A stretch of 64,000 nucleotides of DNA from a virus, in the IMG/VR virus record IMGVR_UViG_3300045988_164457, positions 1 through 64,000 of that record, one strand, 5' to 3'. The notes beneath the pieces are model-generated. The model did not search any database. It saw only the letters and a list, made by a program, of their open reading frames with translations, and had not been told where the DNA came from. A program made the translations under genes and the position numbers. Shown one piece after another: positions 41,192 to 62,812 of this stretch. Numbering within the stretch: position 1 is the stretch's first letter; the number at the start of each line of letters is the position of its first letter.

Positions 41192-41193
41192 AT

Positions 41194-42735
41194 ATGGCTG
41201 ATTGTTTTATTACACGAAGAGGATATGGGAGTAGCGGGGAAGGTTCAAGCAAAGTTACTCCTGAAAAACTGGGTTATGTATCGGGGGCAAATGCCTTTTT
41301 TGACGGCAGATGGAACACACCTTACGGACACGTTTCCGATGGTGCATCGTGGACTGATTTGGTGCATGAAAAGAGCGCCTATCGAGTTTCTATGGGAGAC
41401 ACTGACGCCAAGGACTACATTGATGCGGATTATTATATTAAACCAGCCGTAGCCAGTGGCGGTATTGTCTTGCCGATAGACATGTCAACTTACAGCAGTT
41501 TTACCGTAGAAGCTGTAGTAAAAATTGTCTCTTTGGATAATTACCAGAGTGATATAATCAATACTTATGCAAGTGATAATTACGGCGGTTTCGGTATTAC
41601 AGCAGAAACAGCTACAAAAATTACACTTCAGGCATATTCAGGCGGTTGGAAAAATATGTCTTCGACTTATACTAAAGGTGAAATTGTCTATGTGGCAATG
41701 ACATTTGATGGCAGCTCACTGAAGTCCTATATAAATGGAATTTATTTATCTGAAGCAAGCTGTACAAATAGAATAACGAATGCGTTATTTCCGTGTCTTG
41801 GCGTTAAAGCAGGAGGAAAGAATGAACACGCTGGTGGCAAGAGCTATTACTACAGGGCTGCTATTTATGATAAAGTGCTAACTGCTGATGAAATTACGCA
41901 GAACTATAACAGGGACGTATATAGGTATGTTAATGGCAATGCGGATGATATTGATGATAGTGACAGTGGGGATAAACCATCTGCTACAGTTGAAAAATCA
42001 ACTGTCTCTTTCACTGCAAATATAACTTCCACATCAAAATATACCGTAGAATATAAGACATTGTATGATACCGCTCCTGCCTTTGAATTATACATAAACG
42101 ATGAGTTAAAAGGTACTTATAGCGCTATAACTAACAATACCGTAGTCATAGATTTGGCAGACCTTGCTTTGTCTATTTCTAAAGCAAAAGTAGTTATCAA
42201 GTCAACATCTTACTACATCGGAATTTCACGGGTATATTTTCGTAGTTCTATAAATATGACAGCTGACACAATAACAACTGACGATGGCGATATAACAGCC
42301 TCAGCAGATAGTTATCGTTCAGGCTGCAATCCGTATTATGCTTTTGACGGCTCAACGGATACAAGTAGTTACTGGTTGGCAAACACTAAGACTACTCCCA
42401 CATGGCTACAGATACAATTTCCAACGGCAAAGGTACTGAAAAGTTTCGTTATGTATAAAGCTCATGCACAATATGACGATTGCGTAAAAGCCTTTACTCT
42501 GCAAGGGTCTAATGATGGTTCTTCTTATATTGATTTGGGCAGTTATGTTTTCTCTGAACAACTCATAACAGTATTCAGCAAGACATTTGAAGTCAACAAT
42601 AGCACTGCCTACACGACTTATAGATTCTATATCATGTCTGCAAATAACTATCCGATGATAAATGAAATATCAATGTTTTTTGATGAAGACATCAACATCA
42701 TCAACGAGTTGTCTATTGTTGATAGTTTGCGGTGA
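41194..42735 (+). CDS. Receptor-binding-type protein: LamG/concanavalin-like N domain plus F5/8 type C (discoidin)-like C domain
   Basis: ...GGFGITAETATKITLQAYSGGWKN...YVAMTFDGSSLKSYINGIY (LamG-like). C-terminal YYAFDGSTDTSSYWLANTKTTPTWLQIQFPTAKVLKSFVMY (discoidin-like). Confidence 0.5.
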   Translation: MADCFITRRGYGSSGEGSSKVTPEKLGYVSGANAFFDGRWNTPYGHVSDGASWTDLVHEKSAYRVSMGDTDAKDYIDADYYIKPAVASGGIVLPIDMSTYSSFTVEAVVKIVSLDNYQSDIINTYASDNYGGFGITAETATKITLQAYSGGWKNMSSTYTKGEIVYVAMTFDGSSLKSYINGIYLSEASCTNRITNALFPCLGVKAGGKNEHAGGKSYYYRAAIYDKVLTADEITQNYNRDVYRYVNGNADDIDDSDSGDKPSATVEKSTVSFTANITSTSKYTVEYKTLYDTAPAFELYINDELKGTYSAITNNTVVIDLADLALSISKAKVVIKSTSYYIGISRVYFRSSINMTADTITTDDGDITASADSYRSGCNPYYAFDGSTDTSSYWLANTKTTPTWLQIQFPTAKVLKSFVMYKAHAQYDDCVKAFTLQGSNDGSSYIDLGSYVFSEQLITVFSKTFEVNNSTAYTTYRFYIMSANNYPMINEISMFFDEDINIINELSIVDSLR

Positions 42736-42748
42736 AGGTGAGTATATA

Positions 42749-43099
42749 ATGAAAAAGCGTAAGATGGAATTTTCTAAGAAATGGCTTATAGGCTGTATTT
42801 GCGTTAGCCTATTCTTCACGTTGGCTTCATACGTTCTGGCGTGGTTCGACAAGAACGCCGTAGAAACACTTAGCATAACGATCATTGAGACACTGTGGGG
42901 AACTTCCGCAGTGTCCTTTGTATTTTATGCGGGGCTTAACGGCGTGAGAGCCTATACCGGCAGCAAGTGGGGTATTCCAACAGATGAGATGGACAAGGCA
43001 ATTACAGATGAAGAGCCGGAAGAGATAAACTATTCAAACCGATATGACACCGATGATATGTCGGTGGAAGATATTTTAGACGAATATGACAGGCGGTGA
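42749..43099 (+). CDS. Two/three-TM membrane protein preceding the endolysin (holin-like candidate)
   Basis: ATG 42749 after GGTGAAGGTGAG. MKKRKMEFSKKWLIGCICVSLFFTLASYVLAWF...WGTSAVSFVFYAGL, acidic tail. Confidence 0.35.
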   Translation: MKKRKMEFSKKWLIGCICVSLFFTLASYVLAWFDKNAVETLSITIIETLWGTSAVSFVFYAGLNGVRAYTGSKWGIPTDEMDKAITDEEPEEINYSNRYDTDDMSVEDILDEYDRR

Positions 43100-43103
43100 T
43101 TAC

Positions 43104-44321
43104 ATGGAATTGATTGCAAAAGGTGCAGATATCTCTAAACACAATGGAAACATTGACTGGAACAGAGTTAAGAAGACCGAGGTTAACTTTGTGATTATCA
43201 GAGCTGGATTTGGCTTTAACACGGTTGATCCGATGTTTAAGACCTACATTGAAAATGCTATAAAATGCGGACTTGATATCGGAATATACTGGTTTAGCTA
43301 TGCTGGAAGTGTGGCTGATGCGAAAAAGGAAGCAGAGTTCTGCCTCAAGACGATATCGCCCTACAGAAAGAGCATAAATTATCCTGTGTTTTTCGACTGG
43401 GAGAACGGCAGCTACAACTACGTAAAGCGAACATACGGTATAACGCCTACCAAAAAGCTTGTGTCTGATATGGCTGTAGAATTTATGGACACTATCGGAC
43501 AGGCTGGGTACAAGGTTGGCAACTACAACAGTGTAAGCTACCTGAATACATTTTTCGATGACAGAGTTAAAGAGAACTATGATACTTGGGTAGCTCACGT
43601 AAGAGACGCCAATGGAAATCCTCTGGAAAAGACAAGCTACAAAGGCAAGTATGTTATTCATCAGTATTCATGGGTCGGACGACCGAGTGGTTTCTCCTCT
43701 AAGACCGATATGGATTACTGTTATAAGGATTATACCGGTAAGGGTACAACTACAAAAACTGAGACGGTTAAATCGTCAAAGTATGTTGTTCCCGATAATA
43801 TCACATTTAAAGTACCAACATCTAAGAATGTGATTACGACCTATCCGTTGAAGACTTATGGCGAAACCAAGATTTCTGACCATTTCAAGGTCAAGGAGTT
43901 TACCAGTAAATTCGGCAATAAGGTCTATTCGGATAAAGTCAAGATACATAACAAACTGATTGAAATTCTGGAGGCTCTGTATGCCAAACTGGACTGCTCG
44001 ATGATTATAGTCAACAGTGGTTACAGGACTGCGGAGCACGACAAAGCGGTCGGTGGCAATGGGTCGGGATATCATGTTCTCGGAAGAGCGGCGGATATTA
44101 TCTGCTATGACAAAAACAAAAAGATAATCGACGCTAAGACCGTATGCGTAACGCTGGAAGAGATGGGTGGAATATACGGTATAGGGTATATCAACAACAG
44201 AGCTGTCCATGTGGATACGAGACCCAAGGCTTCTCAGTGGTATGGCGACGAAACCAAACGTGGAGCGCCCAGTATCACGAAGCTTGGATACAAGTCTTTC
44301 CGTGATTATTTCAAGATGTAA
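43104..44321 (+). CDS. Endolysin: GH25 muramidase plus peptidase M15-like zinc domain
   Basis: N-terminal GADISKHNGNIDWNRVKKTEVNFVIIRAGFG...GIYWFSYA (GH25). C-terminal SGYRTAEHDKAVGG...GYHVLGRAADI...AVHVD (H..D...H zinc peptidase pattern). Confidence 0.8.
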   Translation: MELIAKGADISKHNGNIDWNRVKKTEVNFVIIRAGFGFNTVDPMFKTYIENAIKCGLDIGIYWFSYAGSVADAKKEAEFCLKTISPYRKSINYPVFFDWENGSYNYVKRTYGITPTKKLVSDMAVEFMDTIGQAGYKVGNYNSVSYLNTFFDDRVKENYDTWVAHVRDANGNPLEKTSYKGKYVIHQYSWVGRPSGFSSKTDMDYCYKDYTGKGTTTKTETVKSSKYVVPDNITFKVPTSKNVITTYPLKTYGETKISDHFKVKEFTSKFGNKVYSDKVKIHNKLIEILEALYAKLDCSMIIVNSGYRTAEHDKAVGGNGSGYHVLGRAADIICYDKNKKIIDAKTVCVTLEEMGGIYGIGYINNRAVHVDTRPKASQWYGDETKRGAPSITKLGYKSFRDYFKM

Positions 44322-52080: not shown

Positions 52081-53247
52081 ATGAAAGGTAGCGTAAGAAA
52101 AAAAGGAGCTACTTGGTCTTTCCGTCTTGATCTGGGCAAACAAGAGAATGGAAAACGTAAACAAATTGAACGTAGTGGTTTTGCTACTGAAAAAGAAGCT
52201 CAAGCTATGTTAGCCAAGTATATAGACGAGTATAATAACAATGGTGAGATTGTCGAGAACAAAAAGATAACTCTTAATGAGGTTTATCAGGAATTTATCG
52301 ATAATGAAGCTAATACCACCCGTAAGCATTCAACCGTTACAAGATATAATTCTTTATATAGAAATCATATATGTAACGAAATAGGTTACAACTATATTGG
52401 TAATTTTTCGGCACAAAAATTACAAGAATATATTAATAGTAAAAGAAGCGAAAATCTGAGTGACGAATACATTAGAAGTATTTACAATTTTTTACTTGTA
52501 TTATTTAGGTATGCTGTTAAAAGAAAGTACATCAGAACCAATCCTACTATCGGAGTTGTCCCACCAGCAAGTTATCGTGCATACGGTGAAATACAAACTT
52601 ACACTAAAAAAGAATTAGAGTTAATGGAACAAAGATGTGCTACAACAAATTTAACTCCAGCCTTTAAAATAGGAATTAACCTTGGTCTTAGAGTTAGTGA
52701 ATGTTTTGGATTAAGATTTTCTGATATTGATTGGAATAAAAAGACTATACGAATAAACAAGCAATTATATTTTCAAGATAAACAATGGTCTTTTATACCA
52801 CCCAAAACAGTAAGTAGTGTAAGAACTATAAAAATGGGTGATGAATTTACCAATTACCTCAAAGAGCTACAAGCACAGCATGAAAAAAATAAACAAGAAT
52901 ACGGCGATGGATATGCTATAAATTTTGTTACCGATAGAAGAAATGACAAAACGCAAAGAATTATCGTTGATGACTTTATAAATGTTAAGCCAAACGGAGA
53001 AATGCTTACTCCAAATAGCATTAAGTTTATGAGACGCATATTTAAAGACGACCTCAATATAGACTTCAAGTATCATAATCTTAGACACACTCATACCACT
53101 ATGTTGGCTGAATCGGGTGTAAATCCTAAGTACGTACAGAAGCGCTTAGGGCATAGTAAATTAGAAACCACTCTTAGATATTACACCCATATCACTGATA
53201 AAATGGATGAAGAAGTTGCAAATATTATGGATAATATTCTAAAATAA
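52081..53247 (+). CDS. int: Phage integrase (tyrosine recombinase)
   Basis: N-terminal MKGSVRKKGATWSFRLDLGKQENGKRKQIERSGFATEKEAQAMLAKY arm-binding type domain. C-terminal GLRVSECFGLRFSD...HNLRHTHTTML...LGHSKLETTLRYYTH. Confidence 0.85.
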   Translation: MKGSVRKKGATWSFRLDLGKQENGKRKQIERSGFATEKEAQAMLAKYIDEYNNNGEIVENKKITLNEVYQEFIDNEANTTRKHSTVTRYNSLYRNHICNEIGYNYIGNFSAQKLQEYINSKRSENLSDEYIRSIYNFLLVLFRYAVKRKYIRTNPTIGVVPPASYRAYGEIQTYTKKELELMEQRCATTNLTPAFKIGINLGLRVSECFGLRFSDIDWNKKTIRINKQLYFQDKQWSFIPPKTVSSVRTIKMGDEFTNYLKELQAQHEKNKQEYGDGYAINFVTDRRNDKTQRIIVDDFINVKPNGEMLTPNSIKFMRRIFKDDLNIDFKYHNLRHTHTTMLAESGVNPKYVQKRLGHSKLETTLRYYTHITDKMDEEVANIMDNILK

Positions 53248-53250
53248 CTA

Positions 53251-53305
53251 AAAATATCCCGCTCAAATAGTATGAAATAAATCATATTATTGAGCGGGAT
53301 ATTTT
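53251..53305. terminator. Bidirectional terminator between int and xis
   Basis: AAAATATCCCGCTCAA / TTGAGCGGGATATTTT 16-bp stem. Confidence 0.7.
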
Positions 53306-53547
53306 TAGTTATTTGCTATTTTATATTGATGAAGAAGCTTAATATCAGTTAAATCACTTAAATCATAACCGTCATAAGCCTCTAAAAAATCATTTAATGA
53401 TTTAGCTGTTATTTTACAGCTACCTAATTTAATACTTTTGAGAATGCCATTGTTGATTAAATCATATACTGCATTTTTATTTATTTTTAATATTGAAGCC
53501 ACTTCAGCAACGGTAAAAACAAGATTTGGAAGAATTGTATTGTTCAT
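53305..53547 (-). CDS. xis: Excisionase-family HTH DNA-binding protein
   Basis: FTVAEVASILKINKNAVYDLINNGILKSIKLGSCKITAKSLNDFL is an HTH_17/excisionase-type motif. ATG 53547 is just after the dut stop. Confidence 0.6.
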   Translation of the reverse strand: MNNTILPNLVFTVAEVASILKINKNAVYDLINNGILKSIKLGSCKITAKSLNDFLEAYDGYDLSDLTDIKLLHQYKIANN

Positions 53548-53548
53548 A

Positions 53549-54052
53549 TTACTTACCACTACTTCCTAATGCACCCATTCCCCTATCAGATGCTATTTCT
53601 TTAAGTTCATTATATGTAAGTTCTTCAACCTTAACCTTTGGAACAGGAATTATGAGCGCCTGTGCTATTGCCTTTTCGTAAGGATAAATAGTATATCCAG
53701 ATGTGTTTTTCATAAATATATAATCGGTATCTTTTTTAACAATAGTTATCTTTTTATTTGTTGTATTGGTAATGGGAACAAACCACTCGTTACGGTAGCC
53801 ACTGTCGATTACACCACACCTCTGAGCAATACCCTTACTACCTGTTGACCCTCTCTCTTTGAGAATAAAACAATAATCTGCATCGCACGCAGAAGCAATA
53901 CCTGTAGGTATCAATGTAGTTGTATGTGGGTCAATAATAATAAAATCATCTTCAAAGTCAGCATAAATATCAAATCCTGCGTCCTCATCTCTCTTTGTGG
54001 GTATAACTGCTGTGGGTCTTACTCTTGCAAATTTAACTGTTGTGTTCATCAT
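53549..54052 (-). CDS. dut: dUTP diphosphatase (trimeric dUTPase)
   Basis: PTKRDEDAGFDIYA, GVIDSGYRNEW, and C-terminal RGMGALGSSGK motifs. Confidence 0.85.
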   Translation of the reverse strand: MMNTTVKFARVRPTAVIPTKRDEDAGFDIYADFEDDFIIIDPHTTTLIPTGIASACDADYCFILKERGSTGSKGIAQRCGVIDSGYRNEWFVPITNTTNKKITIVKKDTDYIFMKNTSGYTIYPYEKAIAQALIIPVPKVKVEELTYNELKEIASDRGMGALGSSGK

Positions 54053-54091: not shown

Positions 54092-54190
54092 TCATATTCC
54101 AGCTTTGATATATGTCCTATTTTTTATAAATTTATTACACATCCAGATGAGAATACCAATTATACCAGTTATGATATAATAAATCATCAT
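54092..54190 (-). CDS. 32-aa hydrophobic peptide, translationally coupled to the desulfurase stop (ATGA overlap)
   Basis: MMIYYIITGIIGILIWMCNKFIKNRTYIKAGI. Below the track cutoff. Weak. Confidence 0.25.
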   Translation of the reverse strand: MMIYYIITGIIGILIWMCNKFIKNRTYIKAGI

Positions 54191-55263
54191 ATATAGCCTC
54201 TTACTTTCTTTATATTTTTCTTAATACTTTCAACAACGTAGTCAACTTCATCATCTGTAAGTGTATCGTCCCAAGATAATCTAATACTATTGTATATGTA
54301 ATCTTCAGGTGTGCCTATAGCTTTTAAAACGTGTGACGGTTCTAAGCTTGCTGAGTTACAAGCTGAACCTGCCGATACATAAATACCGTCCATATCAAGG
54401 AGGAGCATCAGTGATTCAGATTCTACGCCCTTAAAAGCTACATTAAGCGTTGACGATATGCTTACAGGTATAGCGGTGTTGAAATGGGTATCTTTAAAAG
54501 TGATAAAAGTATCAGCAAACTTCTGTTGTATCTCTCTACAACGTTTATCTATTTTGGAAGAAAAATTATAGAGTTCAGCAGCTTTACCTATTCCTACAAT
54601 AGATGCAACATTTTCTGTGCCTGCTCTGATGTTGACTTCCTGTTGACCGCCATAAAGAAGTGGTTTAAACTTGTCGGGTTCTTTTATATAAAGGATTCCT
54701 GTGCCTTTTGCAGCGTGAAATTTATGACCACTAAGACTTAGAAAATCACAATCAAGTTCTTTAACATCTATTGAAACGTGGGAGTATGCTTGAGTTCCGT
54801 CCGAGTGAAATAGCACACCCATATCGTGACATATCTTAATCTTAGTCTTTATATTGTATATTTCTCCGATTTCGTTATTGACAAACATCCAGCTTACAAG
54901 TTCAGGTGAATACTTATAAATGTCATTTGCGAGAGGAGATAAAGTTGCTGTCATTACATTGGGACATTTGAGTATTGAATGATGCTCATATGGTGAACAA
55001 AGTACACTCTTAAAGTTTGAACACACCCAATTATTACTCTCTGTGGCTCCTGATGTAAAAAATATCTGATTAGGTTCTGCATTAATAGCCTTTGCAATTT
55101 GATTTCTTGCTGTTTCTACAGCTTTATGAGCTGTTCTACCGAGAGAGTATAATGATGATGGATTACCGTATTGCTCTGTAAGATACGGCATCATAGCATC
55201 AAGAACTGGTTTTGTTATTGGGGTAGTAGCAGCGTTATCAAGATAAATTGGTTTGTTAATAAT
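54187..55263 (-). CDS. nifS: Cysteine desulfurase (NifS/IscS class V aminotransferase); probable ATT (or GTG 55269) start
   Basis: (M)INKPIYLDNAATTPI..., SGHKFHAAKGTGILY (PLP lysine), SAGSACNS (active-site Cys). GAAGGAG lies 5-8 nt before ATT 55263/55260. The track ATG 55380 lies inside the upstream gene. Confidence 0.8.
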   Translation of the reverse strand: MINKPIYLDNAATTPITKPVLDAMMPYLTEQYGNPSSLYSLGRTAHKAVETARNQIAKAINAEPNQIFFTSGATESNNWVCSNFKSVLCSPYEHHSILKCPNVMTATLSPLANDIYKYSPELVSWMFVNNEIGEIYNIKTKIKICHDMGVLFHSDGTQAYSHVSIDVKELDCDFLSLSGHKFHAAKGTGILYIKEPDKFKPLLYGGQQEVNIRAGTENVASIVGIGKAAELYNFSSKIDKRCREIQQKFADTFITFKDTHFNTAIPVSISSTLNVAFKGVESESLMLLLDMDGIYVSAGSACNSASLEPSHVLKAIGTPEDYIYNSIRLSWDDTLTDDEVDYVVESIKKNIKKVRGYI

Positions 55264-55273
55264 TATCACTCCT

Positions 55274-55528
55274 TCATACCTTCGTAAATTTATACAAATC
55301 AACTGGATTGTCCGCTTTATATTTTGTTTTAATAATTTTAATTGTATCAGCAGGTACACTCTCATACAAATAATACACATCTCTGAGCGCAGTAGATGTT
55401 ATGTAGTATTTTGGCTTACCATCAATTTTATAAGTAAGACAAACAGTTTCACCTTTGCTAAATGGTGATTTACTTAATTGTGATTTAGTATTTTCTGTCT
55501 CGTTGTCTATTTTCTTAGATCTTGGCAT
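55274..55528 (-). CDS. Hypothetical protein
   Basis: 84 aa, tightly coupled between the FTR-like and desulfurase genes. Confidence 0.35.
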   Translation of the reverse strand: MPRSKKIDNETENTKSQLSKSPFSKGETVCLTYKIDGKPKYYITSTALRDVYYLYESVPADTIKIIKTKYKADNPVDLYKFTKV

Positions 55529-55725
55529 TATTCACTCACCTTCAGAAATCTGCCACAATGACATTCGCCATCTGTATTTTGTTCTCTGAAAATTTTACAC
55601 GGGCACTTTGTATCGTCATTCTTTATGAGTTCACAGGGGCAATACCCATTATTATCTTTTACAGCTTTTGTTACTTCTTCATAAATAGCAACATCTGGGT
55701 TTTTGATTATTTTCAAACCGTTCAT
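55528..55725 (-). CDS. Ferredoxin:thioredoxin-reductase catalytic-subunit-like protein (65 aa)
   Basis: GYCPCELIKNDDTKCPCKIFREQNTDGECHCGRF carries the CPC...CPC...CHC triad diagnostic of FTR catalytic (FeThRed_B) domains. Confidence 0.65.
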   Translation of the reverse strand: MNGLKIIKNPDVAIYEEVTKAVKDNNGYCPCELIKNDDTKCPCKIFREQNTDGECHCGRFLKVSE

Positions 55726-56207
55726 CAGCTAATCACCTCACCATATTGATTATCACTTACAAGATTTACTCCTAATACATCATCAAAATGTTTTTCTTGA
55801 TTTGGTACATATCGTCCGAATTTACAAATGATATTTTTAAATGTTTTTAGCTTTTCAATTTTATCTTGAATTTCATTTGGATAATAGCCCGTATAAATCA
55901 CAAAAGTATCATTTACACCTTTGCTACGGAAATACTTAATTAAATTATAAACATCTTCAAATTGCATCATTGGTTCAAGCCCACCAATAACAATAGCTTC
56001 TGAAATAGGATTTGAGATATACCTATTAAATATTTCATCAATAGGTGTATCAATGTCCTTTTGTTTTGCTAAGTCACTATTTTGGCAAACTGTAACTGGA
56101 ATATTTGCTTCAATACAGCACTTCCAGTTACAAGTGCCAATAGAGATGAACATACAGGGCAACTTGAAGTTTACGAAATCTTCATCGACTAAGCCCTTAA
56201 TTTTCAT
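55725..56207 (-). CDS. nrdG: Anaerobic RNR activating protein-like radical-SAM enzyme (non-canonical Cys spacing)
   Basis: Abuts the nrdD stop. ...FISIGTCNWKCCIEANIPVTVCQN... and IVIGGLEPMMQ (GGEP-type). Size 160 aa, typical of NrdG. Confidence 0.55.
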   Translation of the reverse strand: MKIKGLVDEDFVNFKLPCMFISIGTCNWKCCIEANIPVTVCQNSDLAKQKDIDTPIDEIFNRYISNPISEAIVIGGLEPMMQFEDVYNLIKYFRSKGVNDTFVIYTGYYPNEIQDKIEKLKTFKNIICKFGRYVPNQEKHFDDVLGVNLVSDNQYGEVIS

Positions 56208-57470
56208 TTATTCTCCCATACCGCTGCTGGTATTTTCCCATTTACGCATACAATACTCTTTCTTACGAGCATTCGTCCATGTGTTAATGGGCGTATAAAA
56301 ACCAACTACTCTCGTATATTCTGTTGCAATAGGCTTACCACAAACAGGGCAAGTTGTTCCATAAAAAGCGTGATTATCTTCGCAGGCTTGAATTTTAGTA
56401 TTAAATGCAAAATAGGTAACACCTGCATCAGCTATGTAACAAGTCATTTTATAAGCTTTATCAAAGCTATCAAAAGGACTGTCTATATTTGCGTGAAGAA
56501 TTGAACCACCATTACAGAACCTATCAAACATTGCCTGAATACGAATACGTTCTTTCAATGTAGTTTTAATTCCCAGAGGAATAAACTGATTACCATAAAG
56601 AGGAAGGTTGTAAATATTTGCTTCGGGGTAGAAAAATTTATCCTTATTCATAAGTTTCGATGCTGCACTTTCACCCGGTATCTGTTCAGTATTTATCATA
56701 TAATCACAATGATTGTCAGCGATGAATTTATCAGCAACTTCTCTCATTGTATCGAATATCTGTTTGCCAAAAGTTGAAGCCTTATCAGTATAATATACAT
56801 TTCCAAACTCATCTGTGGTAGTACAGCCAAACTTTTTCATTGTTTCATATATACCAATAAATCCAATCGTATTGTACAAGTGTTCAAAATCAACAAGCTG
56901 GTAAGAGAAATTCGGAAGCAGACCTTTTTCAACATCTCTTCTGATGATATTTCTAACAATATCCAATGCTCGAATATTTGATAATGTTCTAACTTTGAGT
57001 TCTTCAAGATATTCTTCCTTGGTGTTTGTATCAAGTGCCAGACGAGCAAGATTAATTGTTGATACCTTAACAGAACCAACCTTTAAAGCTGTACCACCCA
57101 CTGAATTAAAATAGCCAAGGTCACGAATATCAGATTTAAGTCTACAGCAATTAGAAAGACTTGAAACATTATCGTCAATAAAGAGGTTGCTATCTGACCA
57201 TTTCATATTGTGCTTAATTGCCCACTTGGCAAAATTCTCATCTTCAAATTGACCATTCTTACGAAGAAGTGAGATTGTGCTTACCGGAAATGTAAACATA
57301 TTTTCAGAACGTATGTCAGACATAACTTCCATATAAAGTTTTTGAAAATCAATAATTTCATCTTCAAAATCAATCATATATGTACCATCCGGGAAAGTGC
57401 TTCCTCCAAAAAGTGCTTCAAAATACGGTCTATCAAATACGGAGGTATTGGTAAATGCGGATTGCTGACC
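56208..57470 (-). CDS. nrdD: Anaerobic ribonucleoside-triphosphate reductase, exon 2
   Basis: The frame is open upstream of ATG 57377 to 57476. GQQSAFTNTSVFDRPYFEAL...; C-terminal CEDNH...CPVCGK zinc site and glycyl-radical motif TRVVGFYTP. Confidence 0.8.
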   Translation of the reverse strand, partial: GQQSAFTNTSVFDRPYFEALFGGSTFPDGTYMIDFEDEIIDFQKLYMEVMSDIRSENMFTFPVSTISLLRKNGQFEDENFAKWAIKHNMKWSDSNLFIDDNVSSLSNCCRLKSDIRDLGYFNSVGGTALKVGSVKVSTINLARLALDTNTKEEYLEELKVRTLSNIRALDIVRNIIRRDVEKGLLPNFSYQLVDFEHLYNTIGFIGIYETMKKFGCTTTDEFGNVYYTDKASTFGKQIFDTMREVADKFIADNHCDYMINTEQIPGESAASKLMNKDKFFYPEANIYNLPLYGNQFIPLGIKTTLKERIRIQAMFDRFCNGGSILHANIDSPFDSFDKAYKMTCYIADAGVTYFAFNTKIQACEDNHAFYGTTCPVCGKPIATEYTRVVGFYTPINTWTNARKKEYCMRKWENTSSGMGE

Positions 57471-58655
57471 CGTTTACCCTCATATTTCTATGAGAACTGA
57501 CTATTTTTTACTACCTTTTAATAGGGTAGCACTTCTCTTTCAAGCAACGTACCAATAGTTGCTTTACTCTCCTTCACGGAGATAGTCGATACAGGCTTCA
57601 AATTGTTAATTTAGTTATTAAAACGTAATGGATATTCTAAGTTTCTACGTCTATACATTTTGGTATTACCACTTTTTATTCCTATTATTATATTACTTTC
57701 TACCTTATATTTTTTTGCTATTTGTCTAATAGAAATATTAGTGTTTATCAATAAATCAATGATTTGAGTTACATCTTCATAGGATAATTTAGGCTTGCTA
57801 TTTGTATTTGCAAAATCCCTAATTGGATATATTTCATCTAACATTTTATGATACATACCTTTATTAATTCTTGATATTGCTCGTGCCTCAACATTATATT
57901 TTTGAGCTATTTCTTCATATGAAAGATATGTGAATTTTAAAATATCAATAATTTCTAATGCTTGATTTTTAGATATTTTACCACGATCATTCGGATTTTT
58001 TCTTATAGGATAAATAATATTATCTTGTTTATAAGAACGTCCAGCATTAATATCATTTATTGTTGAAGGATTAGAATTATATTTTTGAGCTAACTGTCTA
58101 TAACTCAAATCAGAATATTCTAAATCATATATAAGACCTTGTAAATCATATTCCGTAAACTTGGATTCAGGGTGTTTAATTCCAGCCAGTACAGGAGGTT
58201 CCTCCCCACCACTTAAAATATTATATCCATTAGGACGAATACTATCATACTTATCAATCCAATATTGTTCACGTTCGTTATAATTATCAATATCTGATTC
58301 GAGGATTTCAATCCAAAAATGAGATTTACCATATTTCTGAATTGCTTTTGCCACCAAATCATTTTCTATTAAAGCCGAACTTGGCTTACAATGTGCTTGA
58401 AAGCGTTTGTGAACGTTTTTGGCTTGACCTATGTAGACTTTATTGTTAAGATCATTTTTTATTATATAAATACTTTTTGTCATTTTGTCACCTCCTCATC
58501 TGTATCTGTAAATAAATTAACTGAATTAACAAATTTGATTCCCACGAGATTACCTTGCACTATCCGCAAAAGTGTTTAGGTTTCCTCGTTAGCCATACAT
58601 TTATTTGTATAACCCCATTGGTTAATGGAAAAGAAGTGAATGGACAATCTTACTT
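57471..58655 (-). mobile_element. Group-I-like intron in nrdD (boundaries inferred)
   Basis: Exon 1 ends ...AGGGAT; the intron starts AAGTAAGATT then GTCC (58645-42), which pairs with GGAT giving a U.G. The intron ends ...GGGTAAACG. The join gives NQPCVRD|GQQSAFTN. Carries a GIY-YIG ORF. Confidence 0.65.
57611..58483 (-). CDS. GIY-YIG homing endonuclease (I-TevI-like) with three HTH/NUMOD-like repeats
   Basis: SIYIIKNDLNNKVYIGQAKNVHKRFQAH...YWIDKY...GYNILSGG. Repeats LSYRQLAQKYNSNPSTINDINAG / LSYEEIAQKYNVEARAISRINKG / ISIRQIAKKYKVESNIIIGIKSG. Confidence 0.8.
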   Translation of the reverse strand: MTKSIYIIKNDLNNKVYIGQAKNVHKRFQAHCKPSSALIENDLVAKAIQKYGKSHFWIEILESDIDNYNEREQYWIDKYDSIRPNGYNILSGGEEPPVLAGIKHPESKFTEYDLQGLIYDLEYSDLSYRQLAQKYNSNPSTINDINAGRSYKQDNIIYPIRKNPNDRGKISKNQALEIIDILKFTYLSYEEIAQKYNVEARAISRINKGMYHKMLDEIYPIRDFANTNSKPKLSYEDVTQIIDLLINTNISIRQIAKKYKVESNIIIGIKSGNTKMYRRRNLEYPLRFNN

Positions 58656-59342
58656 ATCCCTTACGCAAGGTTGATTCACGGCGTAAATAAATCTCTGAAA
58701 TGCCTGTTCAGCATATTTCTTTTCAGAATGAGATGTCCTTACTCCCATATAGTCATTTTCAATATCTTTATGCCAAAAATAAAACATATAAGGAATAAGA
58801 TTAGGAAGTCCACAAGCACCAGAACTTCTATTGCTTGCAAAGTTTATGTATTCTTTGACAAAATCAACAAATGTTACAAGATGTTTGGGTGGCTTTGGAT
58901 TAAAATTATCACTTAGAAAAAACAAACCCTTTTCAGCAACATCTTTGAGGTCGTACGCAAAACAATAATGTTTAAATGTACTGGTATCTCCATCGTGCAT
59001 ATAAAGTTGACCTATCCATTCACGCCATAACCAGTCATTTGCTGCCTTGAATCCATATTTCTTCTGATATTCATAATGTATTTTATTATAAGCAAGAAGC
59101 TTTCTATGAGGCTTAGGCATCTCGGTAAGGAGCGTTACTATATCCTTTCTCCTTACATTGCTATTTCCATCAATACTTGAATCTGCAACCGTAGTTTCAT
59201 CAATAAAATTATCAATAAAATCGGTATATGAGAGCTGTGCATCATCAAAGCCATTTAACCTTGCAATATATGTACCATATTCACCTTGAAGTTTATTATA
59301 TTGTGTTGTAAAATTTTTATCTAATCTAATGCTTATTTCCAT
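58656..59342 (-). CDS. nrdD: Anaerobic ribonucleoside-triphosphate reductase, exon 1
   Basis: 229 codons ending ...FIYAVNQPCVRD, then a stop two codons into the intron. Continuity with exon 2 restores a ~650-aa NrdD. Confidence 0.8.
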
Positions 59343-59346
59343 TTTA

Positions 59347-59547
59347 TCACTCCATGCTATTTATCCAATTATTAGCTTCCTTAAATTTCATTCTTACATC
59401 ATCAACTTCAAGAATAGGAACGTTTGTTATTCCCATTTTAATCATCTTATCAACATCATTAAATACCGAATATTCGATATTTTTAGCATTAAGTTTATTG
59501 ATAAGTACCTTGCATTTAGGACAACCTGTAGAATATATAACTATCAT
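59347..59547 (-). CDS. nrdH: NrdH/glutaredoxin-like small redoxin
   Basis: 66 aa. MIVIYSTGCPKCKVL... (CxxC at the N-terminus of helix 1) and ...VPILEV... thioredoxin-fold pattern. Directly upstream of nrdD. Confidence 0.6.
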   Translation of the reverse strand: MIVIYSTGCPKCKVLINKLNAKNIEYSVFNDVDKMIKMGITNVPILEVDDVRMKFKEANNWINSME

Positions 59548-59551
59548 TTAA

Positions 59552-60121
59552 TCACCCTTTCAATTTAAATCTTAATTCAAATATCCACTCTAAGTAATCA
59601 TCAATCTCAGACCAATCTTTGCACCTGCGTACAAAATGTTTATCATCGTCATAATTTCTATTCCAAGGATAGTCAAGTACAATCTTGCTGTATTTACCAC
59701 CTATGAGGTTATCATAACAATCATCAATAAGAACATCTATTTCACTGAGCAACTGTTTCTTTTGAATACAGATAAGTCTCTTACGAATATTCAGAAATGG
59801 AAGTGTTCTCTGTAACCAATTAGCCTTTTTAAGTATATTCGCAGGTTCGGTAGATGTTACAATATAAATAGTATGACTTAAATCGTTCCACTTTTTAAGA
59901 ACATCTGCACAACCGTCAATTACAGAAATGCCTTTCCATACTCTCTTATCAGTGAACAGCTTATAGAAATTATCTTTATACTCAGACTTAACAAAGTTCT
60001 CGATGTAGTAATCGGTGATATTATCTGGTGTGAGATTATCGTTATAGTCTTCATTATAGACTTTAAGAACGCTCTCAGTAAGATTGTTTAAGACATTATC
60101 ACAGTCAACACCAATAATCAC
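59552..60121 (-). CDS. 5'(3')-deoxyribonucleotidase (HAD/NT5C family)
   Basis: MIIGVDCDNVLNNL (DxDxV motif), ...IYIVTS..., ...VLIDD. Confidence 0.6.
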   Translation of the reverse strand: MIIGVDCDNVLNNLTESVLKVYNEDYNDNLTPDNITDYYIENFVKSEYKDNFYKLFTDKRVWKGISVIDGCADVLKKWNDLSHTIYIVTSTEPANILKKANWLQRTLPFLNIRKRLICIQKKQLLSEIDVLIDDCYDNLIGGKYSKIVLDYPWNRNYDDDKHFVRRCKDWSEIDDYLEWIFELRFKLKG

Positions 60122-60624
60122 TTTATCACGTCCTTTATAAAGTCTATTGTGTTGTTTCTAAGGTCATCAAGAGAACCGATGTTCTGAACAACATAATCGT
60201 ATTTATAATTCTCTGCTACTGCCTTGTCTGCCGAATTATCGGCTGTAATTGCCTTATTGGACTTAACAAATACTGTCTTTGCATTAAGTGCCTGTTTCAG
60301 ACGTTCAATCTTCTTAGGCTCTCTGCAATCAATAAATAACCAATCTCCTTCAAGCCAGTTTTGATGAAAGTTATCAGCAATATTAAGACAATCCTTAAAA
60401 GGAATATCGTCATATTCTTCAAGAGCGTTATTTACATCGCAAAGAAGTTTTCTAAGCTTATTAGACTTATCCTTAATGTTAATACCTTTACTTTCAAGCA
60501 TATCTCTTGTAAAATCTACATAAGAGTAATGAATTGCATCAATACCGTATTCATTTATGTATTTTATAAACGTATCTTTACCTGAAGCGTGTACTCCATT
60601 AAGAATAAATATTTTCTTAGTCAA
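60118..60624 (-). CDS. dNMP kinase-like P-loop protein (T4 gp1-like)
   Basis: KIFILNGVHASGKDTF resembles T4 gp1 FLSGVKRSGKDT. Confidence 0.45.
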   Translation of the reverse strand: MTKKIFILNGVHASGKDTFIKYINEYGIDAIHYSYVDFTRDMLESKGINIKDKSNKLRKLLCDVNNALEEYDDIPFKDCLNIADNFHQNWLEGDWLFIDCREPKKIERLKQALNAKTVFVKSNKAITADNSADKAVAENYKYDYVVQNIGSLDDLRNNTIDFIKDVIK

Positions 60625-61279
60625 TCTTTATCATCTCCTCTAATCTTTTATATTTACCGCAACTCTTATTTTCAGGGCAGAATGAAATCTTATTAGCTTC
60701 ACACTTGGGAACGCAATAAGGTGCAAGTTCAGGACAAGTATCAATTACACATTGTCTCATTTTCTGTGCAAGTTCTCTTATTTCCCACTGCGCACGAGTA
60801 CAAAGTCTTTCATTAAAGAAGTGCATTAAATTTCTAAAATCAAAAGAACAGTCAATAACTGTACAACAAGCGTTAGGAAGTATCATTCTTGCATCTTCAG
60901 CAGGAATACCCATTGAAATCAGATCGTTGTAAGATGTTTGAATACGTTCCATAATATTCTTATAAATTGTATCTGCCGATTGATTATTGGCAATAGTCTT
61001 AGGAATTACATATTCAAAACCGTCTTCTATACAATATCTCTGACTTCTTACTTCAAATTTACCTGTCCTGTGACGTGTTATCTGTGCAAGTAAAGCCCTT
61101 GAAACACCCTCGATGTGAAAATGAAACTGAGCAAATTCCATTACTGACAAATGCCCTGAATTATAGCACTGTCTCACAATCTTGCCAATAGATGAGGGCT
61201 TACTGTTATAGCAGTTGCTTGCAGCGGATTCCATTGCAAGAATAGGCTCATTTGTGTATCTTACAAGTTCTACTTTCAA
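60617..61279 (-). CDS. thyX: Flavin-dependent thymidylate synthase
   Basis: ThyX signature ITRHRTGKFEVRSQRY (RHR...SQRY). Confidence 0.85.
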   Translation of the reverse strand: MKVELVRYTNEPILAMESAASNCYNSKPSSIGKIVRQCYNSGHLSVMEFAQFHFHIEGVSRALLAQITRHRTGKFEVRSQRYCIEDGFEYVIPKTIANNQSADTIYKNIMERIQTSYNDLISMGIPAEDARMILPNACCTVIDCSFDFRNLMHFFNERLCTRAQWEIRELAQKMRQCVIDTCPELAPYCVPKCEANKISFCPENKSCGKYKRLEEMIKID

Positions 61280-62467: not shown

Positions 62468-62680
62468 TCAACAATCATTTTCTATGTAATCTTCTAATTT
62501 AATTTTAGGCACTGTTGAAATAAGACAATCTTGGCAAATTTGTTCTCCGTCATATTCAAACAGCTCTTCTACCTCATCTTCACACTCATCACAATAAAAG
62601 TGAGGAACATTTCTGTTTCTGCAAGTGCTTCCTCGGCAATGTAACGCACAATCGCAACAATCGTTTTCAAATTTTATCAT
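62468..62680 (-). CDS. Small Cys-rich (zinc-binding-like) protein
   Basis: 70 aa with CCDCALHC, C...C, and CDEC...CQDC. Confidence 0.35.
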   Translation of the reverse strand: MIKFENDCCDCALHCRGSTCRNRNVPHFYCDECEDEVEELFEYDGEQICQDCLISTVPKIKLEDYIENDC

Positions 62681-62812
62681 TCTATTTTATCACCTCCTTA
62701 ATTGTGATACTATTATTATACCACTTTAAGAAATTCTGTCAAGCGATTTTTAATGCACTTTTTATTATTTACTTATAATTTAATAAAAGTGGATTTTCAT
62801 TATATTGTATTA

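What the first reader, a model, noticed from the sequence alone, without database searches (positions are those of the whole stretch)
54187..59547. Phage-encoded redoxin electron chain around a class III ribonucleotide reductase (NrdH-like, NrdD, NrdG-like, FTR-like CPC/CPC/CHC protein, NifS)
One leftward operon encodes, in order:
- a CxxC glutaredoxin/NrdH-like protein
- NrdD
- an NrdG-like activase
- a 65-aa protein with the CPC...CPC...CHC cysteine triad of ferredoxin:thioredoxin reductase catalytic subunits
- a small unknown protein
- a cysteine desulfurase

It is established that most studied class III RNRs use formate, but some use thioredoxin/NrdH-type redoxins. In Methanosarcina the redoxin is reduced by an FTR-like ferredoxin:disulfide reductase. 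The gene set here suggests the phage brings a complete ferredoxin-to-FTR-like-to-NrdH-like-to-NrdD pathway, plus an Fe-S cluster supply. I have not seen that described for a phage.
Basis: partly seen in the sequence, partly recalled or inferred. Interest (0 to 1): 0.65.

Follow-up and report, generated by a model that had tools for sequence, protein, structure and literature searches.

The report
Phage anaerobic RNR with ferredoxin-linked redoxins

Summary
Four corrections apply.

- **nrdD is split.** A 1185-nt group I intron (58655-57471) carrying a GIY-YIG homing endonuclease interrupts it. Splicing restores a 649-aa NrdD.
- **NrdD type.** It belongs to the Thermotoga/Neisseria-type subclass (NrdDh/NrdD2). 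It has Tyr-Cys, NCCR and a conserved Glu, and no Met of the formate type.
- **The redoxin.** It is a 66-aa CPKC thioredoxin-fold protein that fails the NrdH family model.
- **Accessory parts.** NifS is rare in related loci, and the window encodes no ferredoxin.

The 65-aa protein passes Pfam FeThRed_B. Its six Cys are invariant across the aligned homologues and the His is conserved in over 90%.

The order redoxin-NrdD-NrdG-miniFTR recurs in:
- Clostridium phage c-st (annotated in the record, never interpreted);
- 33 of 59 bacterial genome loci, with eight more holding a divergent NrdD;
- 8 of 11 phage nrdD loci sampled independently of the FTR gene.

The electron chain is therefore well supported by comparative genomics but untested biochemically. 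It combines the thioredoxin-type reductase with the ferredoxin-dependent supply known from Methanosarcina, using a minimal FTR. I rate it a new variant of a known kind, of moderate interest.

The parts
59347..59547 (-). 66-aa thioredoxin-fold redoxin with a CPKC active site. It is 'NrdH-like' by position only.
   Evidence: Scores: Pfam Glutaredoxin 20.2 bits (gathering score 22.9) and Thioredoxin_3 18.4; TIGR00412 24 bits and NrdH TIGR02194 17.6 against a cut-off of 85.75; PHROG 22 'thioredoxin domain' E 1e-8. In 50 distinct homologues upstream of nrdD the motif is CPxC (CPKC 32, CPRC 10) and a conserved Pro lies before the third strand.
58656..59342 (-). nrdD exon 1 (229 codons, ending ...NQPCVRD).
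   Evidence: Pfam NRDD, and alignment to T. maritima NrdD residues 3-220. It contains HYCFAY, equivalent to Tm Tyr124-Cys125.
57471..58655 (-). Group I intron (1185 nt), td-like core with P7.1/P7.2. The ORF is looped out of a 12-bp stem.
   Evidence: Boundaries: exon 1 ends in U, paired to G in P1 (GGAU/GUCC). A G ends the intron in all five orthologous copies. The closest uninterrupted NrdDs read ...RDG[SQI]QSAFTN, which fixes the junction. Structure: the R/S elements GACUA/UAGUC are present. P7.1, P7.2 and P8 show 4-6 canonical pair types per pair at 98-104 of 104 paired for P7.1 and P7.2; P8 is less well aligned (69-100 of 104). Relatives: a homologous intron plus HEG occurs in Enterococcus phage EF1. 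Rfam finds nothing.
57611..58483 (-). Intron-encoded GIY-YIG homing endonuclease (290 aa) with C-terminal HTH repeats.
   Evidence: Pfam GIY-YIG E 1.6e-10. TIGR01453 'group I intron endonuclease' 79 bits, above the cut-off of 56. Homologues sit inside nrdD of other phages.
56208..57470 (-). nrdD exon 2 (420 codons plus stop). It starts GGT CAG CAA TCC, which is GQQSAFTN.
   Evidence: In-frame conserved sequence runs 93 nt upstream of the first ATG, with no start codon. T. maritima NrdD matches at E 4e-87. Key motifs are NCCR (C337, C338), E491, G619 in RVVGF, and the Zn-site Cys.
55725..56207 (-). NrdG-like radical-SAM activase (160 aa) with a non-canonical Cys motif.
   Evidence: Pfam Fer4_12 35 bits, above the gathering score of 22. 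TIGR02491 NrdG scores only 26.5 against a cut-off of 126. In 38 homologues C26-x3-C30-x(3-10)-C41-QN and GGLEP are conserved. It always lies directly after nrdD.
55528..55725 (-). 65-aa minimal FTR-catalytic-subunit-like protein. Predicted cluster ligands are C29, C41, C43 and C55. The predicted redox-active pair is C31-C57, with H56 between.
   Evidence: PF02943 27 bits, above the gathering score of 22; 29 of 37 family members hit it. The Cys residues are invariant. A profile hits PDB 7pwe (FTR subunit B) and 4tpu at E about 0.02, with all three Cys pairs aligned. The AF2 model has pLDDT 96. BFVD gives a match named 'Ferredoxin thioredoxin reductase' at TM 0.93, but Foldseek finds no PDB match. 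Residue roles are mapped from Synechocystis FTR from my own knowledge.
55274..55528 (-). 84-aa ORF of unknown function with one Cys; not a ferredoxin.
   Evidence: No Pfam, NCBIfam or PHROG hit. Homologues occur in only 5 related loci.
54187..55269 (-). NifS/IscS-type class-V cysteine desulfurase (about 360 aa).
   Evidence: Aminotran_5 E 1.5e-66. TIGR03402 NifS scores 353 bits, below the cut-off of 530. The SGHK PLP-lysine motif and the SAGSAC Cys loop are present in the translation. The start was inferred from AGGAG plus GTG/ATT.

Best explanation
This is the deoxynucleotide-supply module of a temperate phage of strictly anaerobic Firmicutes.

1. [quoted passage not shown]
2. NrdG-like installs the glycyl radical.
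3. Each turnover oxidises an active-site Cys pair: C127 with one of the C337/C338 pair.
4. The disulfide is re-reduced by the co-encoded 66-aa CPKC redoxin.
5. The redoxin is in turn reduced by the 65-aa FTR-like protein. That protein is predicted to use a [4Fe-4S] cluster (C29, C41, C43, C55) and a redox-active disulfide (C31-C57, H56), taking two electrons one at a time from host ferredoxin.
6. dNTP synthesis is thereby coupled to the host's low-potential ferredoxin pool instead of to formate or NADPH.
7. NifS is an optional helper that could supply sulfur for the clusters of NrdG and the FTR-like protein.

Shown here: gene content, family assignments, active-site signature, conserved synteny, and intron structure and boundaries. 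Inferred: every electron-transfer step, cluster binding and splicing activity.
For: NrdD type:
- The best solved relative is T. maritima NrdD (E 4e-87). That enzyme is inactive with formate and needs a protein factor.
- It belongs to the same subclass as N. bacilliformis NrdD, which uses thioredoxin.
- C127, C337, C338, R339 and E491 are invariant in 32 of 32 cassette NrdDs.
- The position two before the CC pair is Met (as in the formate-type MGCR) in only 1 of 32.

FTR-like protein:
- It passes the PF02943 gathering score.
- All six Cys are invariant and the His is above 90% conserved.
- The alignment to PDB FTR/FDR-type chains spans NPD...GY.CPC...CPC...CxC.

Synteny:
- The same order occurs in phage c-st and in metagenome loci L003-L010.
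- 33 of 59 genome loci show it, and 8 more carry a divergent NRDD.
- In loci chosen by the intron 15-mer rather than by the FTR gene, the redoxin precedes nrdD in 14 of 14.
- In the same loci the FTR-like gene follows in 8 of 11.

Other points:
- Where the FTR-like gene lacks nrdD, it sits by thiol peroxidases (GSHPx, AhpC/TSA). That fits a general disulfide-reductase chemistry.
- Precedent: FDR plus an NrdH-like protein drive M. barkeri NrdD (Wei 2015, cited; details from my own knowledge).
Against: - There is no biochemical evidence for any step.
- The protein is about half the length of characterised FTR catalytic subunits, with different Cys spacings (X9/X11 here against X16/X8, from my own knowledge). 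No variable-subunit or rubredoxin partner is present.
- Foldseek found no solved FTR resembling the confident model.
- PDB sequence hits are marginal (E about 0.02).
- Three of 11 independently sampled phage nrdD loci lack the FTR-like gene. crAss-like phages carry it with no nrdD beside it. The link is therefore frequent but not obligatory.
- The FTR-like gene is translationally coupled to nrdG, not to the redoxin gene.
- The redoxin fails the NrdH and Grx cut-offs.
- No ferredoxin gene is present.
Confidence: 0.55

Rival explanations
1. The FTR-like protein serves the activase, not the redoxin. As a small Fe-S protein it would deliver the electron that NrdG needs to cleave S-adenosylmethionine, the role flavodoxin plays in E. 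coli. The CPKC redoxin would then be recycled by host thioredoxin reductase.
For: Its start codon overlaps the nrdG stop (ATGA), and it follows nrdG directly in nearly all cassettes. NrdG-like has an unusual cluster motif, CX3CX(3-10)C, and might need a dedicated partner. Three of 11 phage cassettes work without the FTR-like gene but keep the redoxin.
Against: The second Cys of each pair and the His, which are the disulfide-chemistry residues of FTR, are conserved as strictly as the presumed cluster ligands. The family also occurs without nrdG, next to thiol peroxidases and alone in crAss phages. The FTR cluster is not a simple one-electron carrier (my own knowledge).
Confidence: 0.15
2. The FTR-like protein is a general thiol/disulfide or redox-signalling accessory gene. 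It would keep host or phage thioredoxin-type proteins reduced during infection, and its place beside nrdDG would reflect shared regulation in a nucleotide-metabolism module rather than a dedicated chain.
For: crAss001 and relatives carry it among tRNA genes with no nrdD beside it. About 18 of 59 genome loci show no NrdD nearby; their neighbours include GSHPx, AhpC/TSA, MarR and dUTPase. The family is large and diverse, with 1391 clusters.
Against: Colinear linkage to redoxin-NrdD-NrdG occurs in roughly 70% of loci and across NrdD sequences only 25-50% identical. The gene order and spacing are fixed.
Confidence: 0.15
3. The FTR-like protein reduces the NrdD disulfide directly, or the redoxin is reduced only by host systems. 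Either way one of the two small proteins is not part of a linear chain.
For: For T. maritima NrdD the SCCR loop is exposed and disordered, so a small protein could reach it. No interaction data exist.
Against: The redoxin is the most constant partner of nrdD, 14 of 14 in the unbiased sample. Known FTR/FDR enzymes act on thioredoxin-fold substrates (my own knowledge).
Confidence: 0.1

Closest known systems
Methanosarcina barkeri class III RNR system (NrdD3 with NrdH-like thioredoxin and ferredoxin:disulfide reductase; Wei et al. 2015, Biochemistry 54:7019)
   Same: A class III RNR is supplied by a small thioredoxin-fold protein encoded with the RNR and by an FTR-family [4Fe-4S] disulfide reductase fed by ferredoxin. 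Both use PF02943-type Cys pairs.
   Different: Here NrdD is of the NrdDh/NrdD2 subclass (xCCR, Tyr-Cys, Glu), not NrdD3. The reductase is only 65 aa with no extra domain, and it keeps CHC where the solved methanogen-type chains show CYC. The carrier is a bacteriophage of Firmicutes. Nothing has been tested biochemically. I could not read the paper, so the details are from memory.
Neisseria bacilliformis / Thermotoga maritima NrdD (NrdD2, NrdDh; PDB 4U3E, 4COI)
   Same: The subclass and active-site signature are the same: SCCR/NCCR, Tyr-Cys and Glu. T. maritima NrdD matches at E 4e-87. There is no ATP-cone. The reductant is a protein rather than formate.
   Different: N. bacilliformis uses thioredoxin, thioredoxin reductase and NADPH. 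The phage brings its own redoxin and a ferredoxin-type reductase. The phage gene carries a group I intron.
Clostridium botulinum phage c-st genes CST074-CST077
   Same: The genes are the same: glutaredoxin-like, activase-like, NrdD and the 63-aa FTR-like protein (52% identical), followed by dUTPase. The record's annotation notes the FTR similarity.
   Different: c-st NrdD carries an intein at the CC motif instead of an intron. Its small RNR-related ORF, CST075, precedes nrdD; I did not characterise it. c-st has no NifS. The genes were never interpreted as an electron chain.
Ferredoxin:thioredoxin reductase catalytic subunit of cyanobacteria and chloroplasts (PF02943)
   Same: It has the CPC...CPC...CHC motif with His, and the Pfam model is passed.
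   Different: The known subunit is about 115 aa and works as a heterodimer with a variable subunit (my own knowledge). Here the protein is 65 aa with shorter inter-Cys loops, no variable subunit is encoded, and there is no Foldseek match to solved FTR.
Phage T4 td / nrdD (sunY) group I introns with homing endonucleases
   Same: It is a self-splicing-type intron in a phage nucleotide-metabolism gene, with a GIY-YIG-family ORF looped out of the core. The core has P7.1/P7.2 and the sequence CGACUAUC..GGAGAGUA, resembling td (the td sequence is from memory). Split phage nrdD genes are common.
   Different: The insertion site and host clade are different. The P3 5' strand lies directly after P1, with two hairpins before P4. 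The Rfam group I model does not detect it.

Membership tests
FTR catalytic subunit family (Pfam PF02943 FeThRed_B) | Score above the curated Pfam gathering threshold | tested here: met
   27.0 bits against 22. 29 of 37 homologues hit at E <= 0.01.
FTR catalytic subunit family (Pfam PF02943 FeThRed_B) | Three Cys pairs CPC / CPC / CHC with the catalytic His | tested here: met
   C29, P30, C31, C41, C43, C55 and C57 are invariant, and H56 is above 90%. The spacing is X9/X11 rather than X16/X8 (the latter from my own knowledge).
FTR catalytic subunit family (Pfam PF02943 FeThRed_B) | Fold like solved FTR/FDR structures | tested here: inconclusive
   The AF2 model has pLDDT 96. Foldseek against the PDB gives no hit with E < 1. 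A sequence profile hits 7pwe and 4tpu only at E about 0.02. Small loop-rich metal-site folds are hard for Foldseek.
FTR catalytic subunit family (Pfam PF02943 FeThRed_B) | Partner variable subunit (classical FTR) or extra rubredoxin domain (4tpu-type FDR) | tested here: not met
   The protein is a single 65-aa domain. The neighbouring 84-aa ORF has no family hit.
FTR catalytic subunit family (Pfam PF02943 FeThRed_B) | Binds a [4Fe-4S] cluster and reduces a thioredoxin-fold disulfide with ferredoxin | not testable with these tools
   This needs protein chemistry.
Thioredoxin-type class III RNR (Wei NrdD2 / RNRdb NrdDh) | xCCR motif on the finger-loop region, which is unique to NrdDh | tested here: met
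   NCCR aligns to Tm S328-C329-C330-R331. CC-R is invariant in 32 of 32 cassette NrdDs. Its uniqueness to NrdDh is stated in PMC4493059.
Thioredoxin-type class III RNR (Wei NrdD2 / RNRdb NrdDh) | Conserved Tyr-Cys (Tm Y124-C125) and Glu (Tm E495 / Nb E438) | tested here: met
   HYCFAY and NTEQ are present. Y is found in 31 of 32, C in 32 of 32 and E in 32 of 32. The Glu role is described.
Thioredoxin-type class III RNR (Wei NrdD2 / RNRdb NrdDh) | Absence of the formate-type Met (MGCR in T4) | tested here: met
   Asn occupies that position; across the 32 sequences it is N or S in 31. Phe occupies the Tm Met356 position.
Thioredoxin-type class III RNR (Wei NrdD2 / RNRdb NrdDh) | Glycyl-radical motif and C-terminal Zn site | tested here: met
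   RVVGF with G619, and CEDNH...CPVC aligned to Tm.
Thioredoxin-type class III RNR (Wei NrdD2 / RNRdb NrdDh) | Turnover with a redoxin and not with formate | not testable with these tools
   This needs an enzyme assay.
NrdH-redoxin (TIGR02194) | Score above the curated model cut-off | tested here: not met
   17.6 bits against 85.75. The best family is TIGR00412 (MTH895-type) at 24 bits against 62. It works like an NrdH but is not a family member.
NrdH-redoxin (TIGR02194) | CxxC on a thioredoxin fold, encoded beside an RNR | tested here: met
   CPxC is found in 47 of 50 homologues. The gene precedes nrdD in 14 of 14 independently sampled loci.
NrdG activase (radical SAM) | Curated NrdG model and canonical CX3CX2C | tested here: not met
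   TIGR02491 scores 26.5 against 126. The motif is C-x3-C-x(3-10)-C-Q-N.
NrdG activase (radical SAM) | Fer4_12 domain, GGxEP-type motif and position directly after nrdD | tested here: met
   Fer4_12 scores 35 bits, above 22. GGLEP is conserved. Synteny is shown.
Group I intron | U.G pair at the 5' splice site in P1, terminal G, and exons that join in frame to the uninterrupted protein sequence | tested here: met
   P1 is GGAU/GUCC. A G ends the intron in 5 of 5 orthologues. The junction RD|GQQSAFTN matches intron-less homologues, which read RDG[SQI]QSAFTN.
Group I intron | Conserved core helices supported by covariation | tested here: met
   In 104 distinct 3' cores, P7.1 and P7.2 are 98-104 of 104 paired with 4-6 pair types per pair. 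P8 also covaries. P7 (GACUA/UAGUC) is invariant. P3, P2-like, P4/P5 and P9 show compensatory changes among the window, EF1, L099, L119 and L086.
Group I intron | Match to Rfam RF00028 | tested here: not met
   No hit even at E <= 10 on 1.3 kb.
Group I intron | Self-splicing with guanosine | not testable with these tools
   This needs in vitro transcription and splicing, or RT-PCR.
NifS/IscS cysteine desulfurase | Class-V aminotransferase fold with PLP-Lys and catalytic Cys loop | tested here: met
   Aminotran_5 E 1.5e-66. SGHK and SAGSAC are present in the translation. No equivalog cut-off is reached; NifS scores 353 against 530.

The most novel reading that the evidence does not exclude
A free-standing 60-70-residue protein is the smallest functional ferredoxin:disulfide reductase. 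Together with a 66-residue CPxC redoxin it would form a portable, NADPH- and formate-independent electron supply. Phages of anaerobes would use it to wire NrdDh-type class III ribonucleotide reductase directly to the host ferredoxin pool. The same pair could be the missing physiological reductant type for the T. maritima-like NrdD subclass.
Probability: 0.45. Interest if true: 0.65.

Novelty: new variant of a known kind. Interest (0 to 1): 0.5.

Why it matters
- **An open question for this RNR subclass.** The physiological reductant is known for only one NrdDh enzyme, N. bacilliformis with heterologous thioredoxin. T. maritima NrdD needs an unidentified protein factor. A conserved cassette with a dedicated redoxin and an FTR-like reductase names concrete candidates that can be expressed and tested.
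- **FTR chemistry.** If the 65-aa protein is active, it sets a new minimum size for FTR-type chemistry. It would also give a function to PHROG 38239, a family of about 1400 sequence clusters now labelled 'unknown'.
- **Phage biology.** It would show that temperate phages of gut Clostridia import the electron supply for dNTP synthesis as well as the reductase, tying replication to the host's fermentative redox state.
- **Annotation.** The widespread intron family that Rfam misses causes split nrdD calls in viral metagenomes.

Tried and rejected
- **Rfam scans** of 52-62 kb and of the 1.3-kb insert found no intron. The intron was established by homologue comparison instead.
- **First 3' splice-site guess.** I first placed it after GGGTCAG, at 57465. 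This was rejected for two reasons. Two orthologues lack a G there. The closest intron-less NrdDs also have two more residues.
- **Separate translation of the C-terminal piece** from ATG 57377 was rejected. 93 nt of conserved in-frame coding sequence lie upstream of it, with no start codon or RBS.
- **Megablast of the operon against phage genomes** gave no match.
- **PDB sequence search with NrdG-like** gave only spurious pentatricopeptide hits.
- **Foldseek of the mini-FTR model against the PDB** gave no meaningful hit.
- **Wei et al. 2014 and 2015** could not be read; neither is held. The NrdD2/NrdD3 criteria therefore rest on secondary papers and on memory.
- **A ferredoxin-motif scan** of all six frames of the window found none.
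- **The promoter/terminator scan** was not above shuffled expectation.
- **orf84** was considered as a ferredoxin or an FTR variable subunit. It has one Cys and no family hit.

Full report
**What is there**

The window is a temperate tailed phage. It has a large terminase (5212-6906), a portal (6913-8475) and a tape measure (18536-20668) by PHROGs. It also has an integrase (52081-53247) and a small HTH protein.

The finding lies in a leftward block of nucleotide-metabolism genes, running from high to low coordinates:
- ThyX, 60617-61279.
- A kinase-like ORF, 60118-60624; I ran no family search on it.
- NT5C deoxynucleotidase, 59552-60121.
- dUTPase, 53549-54052.

Junctions are 0-5 nt or overlapping, and no terminator-like site interrupts the row.

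**First correction: nrdD is interrupted**

The ORF list shows two NRDD pieces, of 230 aa and 389 aa, separated by a 290-aa GIY-YIG ORF. The endonuclease passes the NCBIfam model 'group I intron endonuclease' at 79 bits against a cut-off of 56.

Conserved NrdD sequence (GQQSAFTNTSVFDRPYFEALFGGSTFPDGTY) continues in frame for 93 nt upstream of the first ATG of the second piece. That stretch has no start codon. The two pieces must therefore be joined at the RNA level.

Splice sites:
- The closest uninterrupted homologues read NQPY[VT]RDG[SQI]QSAFTN.
- This puts the 5' splice site after ...AGG GAU (window 58656).
- It puts the 3' splice site before GGU CAG (57470).
- The intron is 58655-57471 (1185 nt), and the spliced NrdD is 649 aa.

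Structural features:
- The last exon base is a U, paired with G in a P1 helix (GGAU/GUCC).
- A G ends the intron in all five orthologous copies.
- The ORF is looped out of a 12-bp stem.
- The 3' core carries the classical R/S elements (GACUA/UAGUC).

Support from related sequences:
- The 15-mer CCTGTATCGACTATC occurs in at least 119 IMG/VR contigs.
- In 104 distinct 3' cores, the P7.1 and P7.2 pairs are 98-104 of 104 canonical with 4-6 pair types each. P8 covaries as well.
- A homologous intron plus HEG in Enterococcus phage EF1 sits in a different gene. Compared with the window it shows compensatory changes in the P2-like hairpins, P4/P5, P7.1, P7.2, P8 and P9.
- Orthologous introns at the same nrdD site occur in L099, L119, L086 and L096. 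They add covariation in the long-range P3 pairing: CACUUC/GAAGUG, UAUCUC/GAGAUA and UAUUAC/GUAAUA.

The Rfam group I model does not see any of this. From memory, the core resembles the T4 td intron (subgroup IA2, with P7.1/P7.2).

Split phage nrdD genes are a known phenomenon. In this clade they are extreme. One contig has four HEG insertions in a single nrdD, and phage c-st has an intein exactly at the catalytic CC motif.

**Which kind of NrdD**

The best solved relative is T. maritima NrdD, at E 4e-87 for exon 2 and 2e-62 for the N-terminal part. Prevotella copri NrdD (PDB 8p23) is far behind at 4e-6, and T4 NrdD is not hit at all.

Diagnostic residues in the window protein:
- HYCFAY, equivalent to Tm Tyr124-Cys125.
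- S-N-C-C-R-L, equivalent to Tm S328-C329-C330-R331.
- N-T-E-Q, equivalent to Tm Glu495.
- Asn where T4 has the Met of MGCR.
- Phe at the position of Tm Met356.

In 32 uninterrupted NrdDs from related cassettes, C127, C337, C338, R339 and E491 are invariant.

What the literature says about this subclass:
- The xCCR motif is unique to RNRdb subclass NrdDh. That subclass contains T. maritima, N. bacilliformis, two Clostridium phages and 'unclassified phage sequences'.
- N. bacilliformis NrdD uses thioredoxin.
- T. maritima NrdD was inactive with formate and needed a protein factor above 10 kDa.
- C329A and C330A mutations of the T. maritima enzyme were reported under the heading that mutating the SCCR cysteines gives inactive enzymes.

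The enzyme is the NrdD2/NrdDh type, though, not the methanogen NrdD3 type of the cited precedent.

**The 65-aa protein**

Family assignment:
- It passes Pfam FeThRed_B at 27 bits against a gathering score of 22.
- 29 of 37 homologues do the same at E <= 0.01.
- Across 37-39 homologues, C29, P30, C31, C41, C43, C55 and C57 are invariant and H56 is above 90%.
- An exhaustive profile search finds 1391 clusters at 50% identity, mostly 60-90 aa.
- PHROGs holds the family as phrog_38239, 'unknown function'.

Structural evidence:
- A profile of the family hits two PDB chains at E about 0.02. One is 7pwe, 'Ferredoxin-thioredoxin reductase subunit B'. The other is 4tpu, which I believe is the M. acetivorans FDR.
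- Both hits align all three Cys pairs. The 4tpu alignment also spans NPD...GY.
- AlphaFold gives a confident model, pLDDT 96.
- That model matches a viral protein already named 'Ferredoxin thioredoxin reductase' at TM 0.93.
- It matches no solved structure, so the fold test is inconclusive.

Mapping onto Synechocystis FTR from my own knowledge predicts C29, C41, C43 and C55 as cluster ligands. It predicts C31-C57 as the redox-active disulfide, with H56 as the catalytic His. The protein is about half the size of a classical catalytic subunit. Neither a variable subunit nor a rubredoxin domain is present.

**The other parts**

The redoxin:
- It is a thioredoxin-fold CPKC protein. In 50 homologues the motif is CPKC in 32 and CPRC in 10.
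- It scores below the Glutaredoxin, Thioredoxin_3, MTH895 and NrdH cut-offs.
- It is NrdH-like in role and position, not in family.

NrdG-like:
- It passes Fer4_12 but not the NrdG equivalogs.
- It has C-x3-C-x(3-10)-C-Q-N instead of CX3CX2C, plus a conserved GGLEP.

NifS:
- It is an intact class-V cysteine desulfurase, with the SGHK and SAGSAC motifs.
- Its real start is probably near 55269.

orf84 has no detectable family. No ferredoxin-motif ORF exists anywhere in the window.

**Is the association real**

- In Clostridium phage c-st, a glutaredoxin-like gene, a small RNR-related ORF, NrdD and the FTR-like gene sit side by side and are followed by dUTPase. The record's annotation notes weak similarity to the M. 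mazei FTR catalytic chain.
- Metagenome contigs carrying close homologues show Thioredoxin_3, NRDD, Fer4_12 and FeThRed_B in a row. They often also carry dUTPase, integrase, holin or ThyX.
- Of 59 loci in GTDB genomes, mostly Clostridia MAGs, 33 have the colinear four genes by tblastn. Eight more have a divergent NRDD by Pfam.
- An independent sample came from loci found through the intron 15-mer rather than through the FTR gene. There the redoxin precedes nrdD in 14 of 14, and the FTR-like gene follows in 8 of 11 with visible downstream DNA.
- NifS is present in only 4 of 68 loci.
- Where the FTR-like gene lacks nrdD, its neighbours include glutathione peroxidase, AhpC/TSA, MarR and flavodoxin. 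In crAss001 it lies among tRNA genes and was called an auxiliary metabolic gene.

**Mechanism**

I propose the following chain, with about 0.55 confidence:

1. Host ferredoxin reduces the mini-FTR, which uses a [4Fe-4S] cluster and the C31-C57 disulfide.
2. The mini-FTR reduces the CPKC redoxin.
3. The redoxin reduces the NrdD active-site disulfide, formed by C127 with one of the C337/C338 pair.

NrdG-like generates the glycyl radical. NifS, in this phage, optionally helps cluster assembly.

Shown here: gene identities, the signature residues, the synteny and the intron. Inferred: all redox steps.

Rivals:
- The FTR-like protein serves NrdG, since their genes are translationally coupled.
- It is a general thiol-redox accessory.
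- One of the two small proteins is bypassed.

**Comparison with what is known, and novelty**

The logic matches the M. barkeri NrdD3/NrdH/FDR system and the N. bacilliformis thioredoxin-dependent NrdD2. This case combines the NrdD2/NrdDh reductase with an FDR-type, ferredoxin-dependent supply. It uses a minimal single-domain FTR and is carried on a phage.

The genes themselves are already in databases. Examples are the c-st record, the crAss001 gp5 annotation and a UniProt viral entry. Full-text searches found no paper connecting an FTR-like protein with a phage or NrdDh class III RNR.

I file it as a new variant of a known kind, of moderate interest. It gives concrete, testable candidates for the reductant of the NrdDh subclass and a function for a large family labelled 'unknown'. 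It is not a new principle.

Noticed in passing
window 57471-58655 (-); loci L070, L072-L190: The intron belongs to a large family of phage group I introns that share the exact 15-mer CCTGTATCGACTATC. Rfam RF00028 does not detect the family, even in permissive mode.
   Followed up: yes
L096 (4 HEG insertions), L086, L116, L126, L040, L023, L034, L038; L001 (c-st): NrdDh-type phage nrdD genes are hot spots for mobile insertions at many different sites. One gene holds up to four HEG-carrying insertions. c-st has an intein inserted exactly between the two Cys of the catalytic SCCR motif.
   Followed up: partly
L096, exon 2 start (GGT TAG CAG): One orthologous intron copy is followed by an in-frame TAG two codons after the inferred 3' splice site. 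This could be a pseudogene, an assembly error or an alternative splice site.
   Followed up: no
L016-L018, L033, L043, L053-L064 and other genome loci: In roughly 18 of 59 bacterial loci the mini-FTR has no NrdD nearby. It lies instead next to glutathione peroxidase, AhpC/TSA/Redoxin, MarR-type regulators, flavodoxin_5, dUTPase or ThyX. This hints at a wider role as a reductant for thiol peroxidases.
   Followed up: partly
window 55725-56207 (-): The NrdG-like activase lacks the canonical radical-SAM CX3CX2C motif. In 38 homologues the conserved pattern is C-x3-C-x(3-10)-C-Q-N, with a variable loop before the third Cys, plus GGLEP.
   Followed up: partly
L006 4709-6007, L009 4574-6001, L010 2287-3621: In several relatives the gene call for NrdG is 430-475 aa. 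An HNH-type endonuclease-like N-terminal part is fused in frame, or read through, to the 160-aa activase. This is another mobile-element footprint in the cassette.
   Followed up: no
window 53243-53313: A nearly perfect inverted repeat of about 25 bp lies between the convergent integrase and the small HTH (excisionase-like) gene. It is probably a bidirectional terminator. It surfaced only as a chance miRNA-model hit.
   Followed up: no
window 62471-62686 (-) and 62715-62742 (-): A 72-aa ORF with 10 Cys (CCDC, CxxxxC, CDEC, CQDC) begins the leftward block. A perfect sigma-70 consensus (TTGACA, 16 nt, TG, TATAAT) sits just upstream of it.
   Followed up: no
window 54187-55380 (-): The mechanical 397-aa NifS ORF has a 37-residue N-terminal extension that overlaps orf84. 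The real start is probably GTG 55269 or an ATT a few bases downstream, after AGGAG. Phage-borne NifS genes are rare in the phage collection and occur mostly in unannotated faecal contigs.
   Followed up: partly
window 40001-44000: GC content rises to 0.40-0.43, against about 0.33 elsewhere, over the 39.9-42.7 kb ORFs in the structural region.
   Followed up: no
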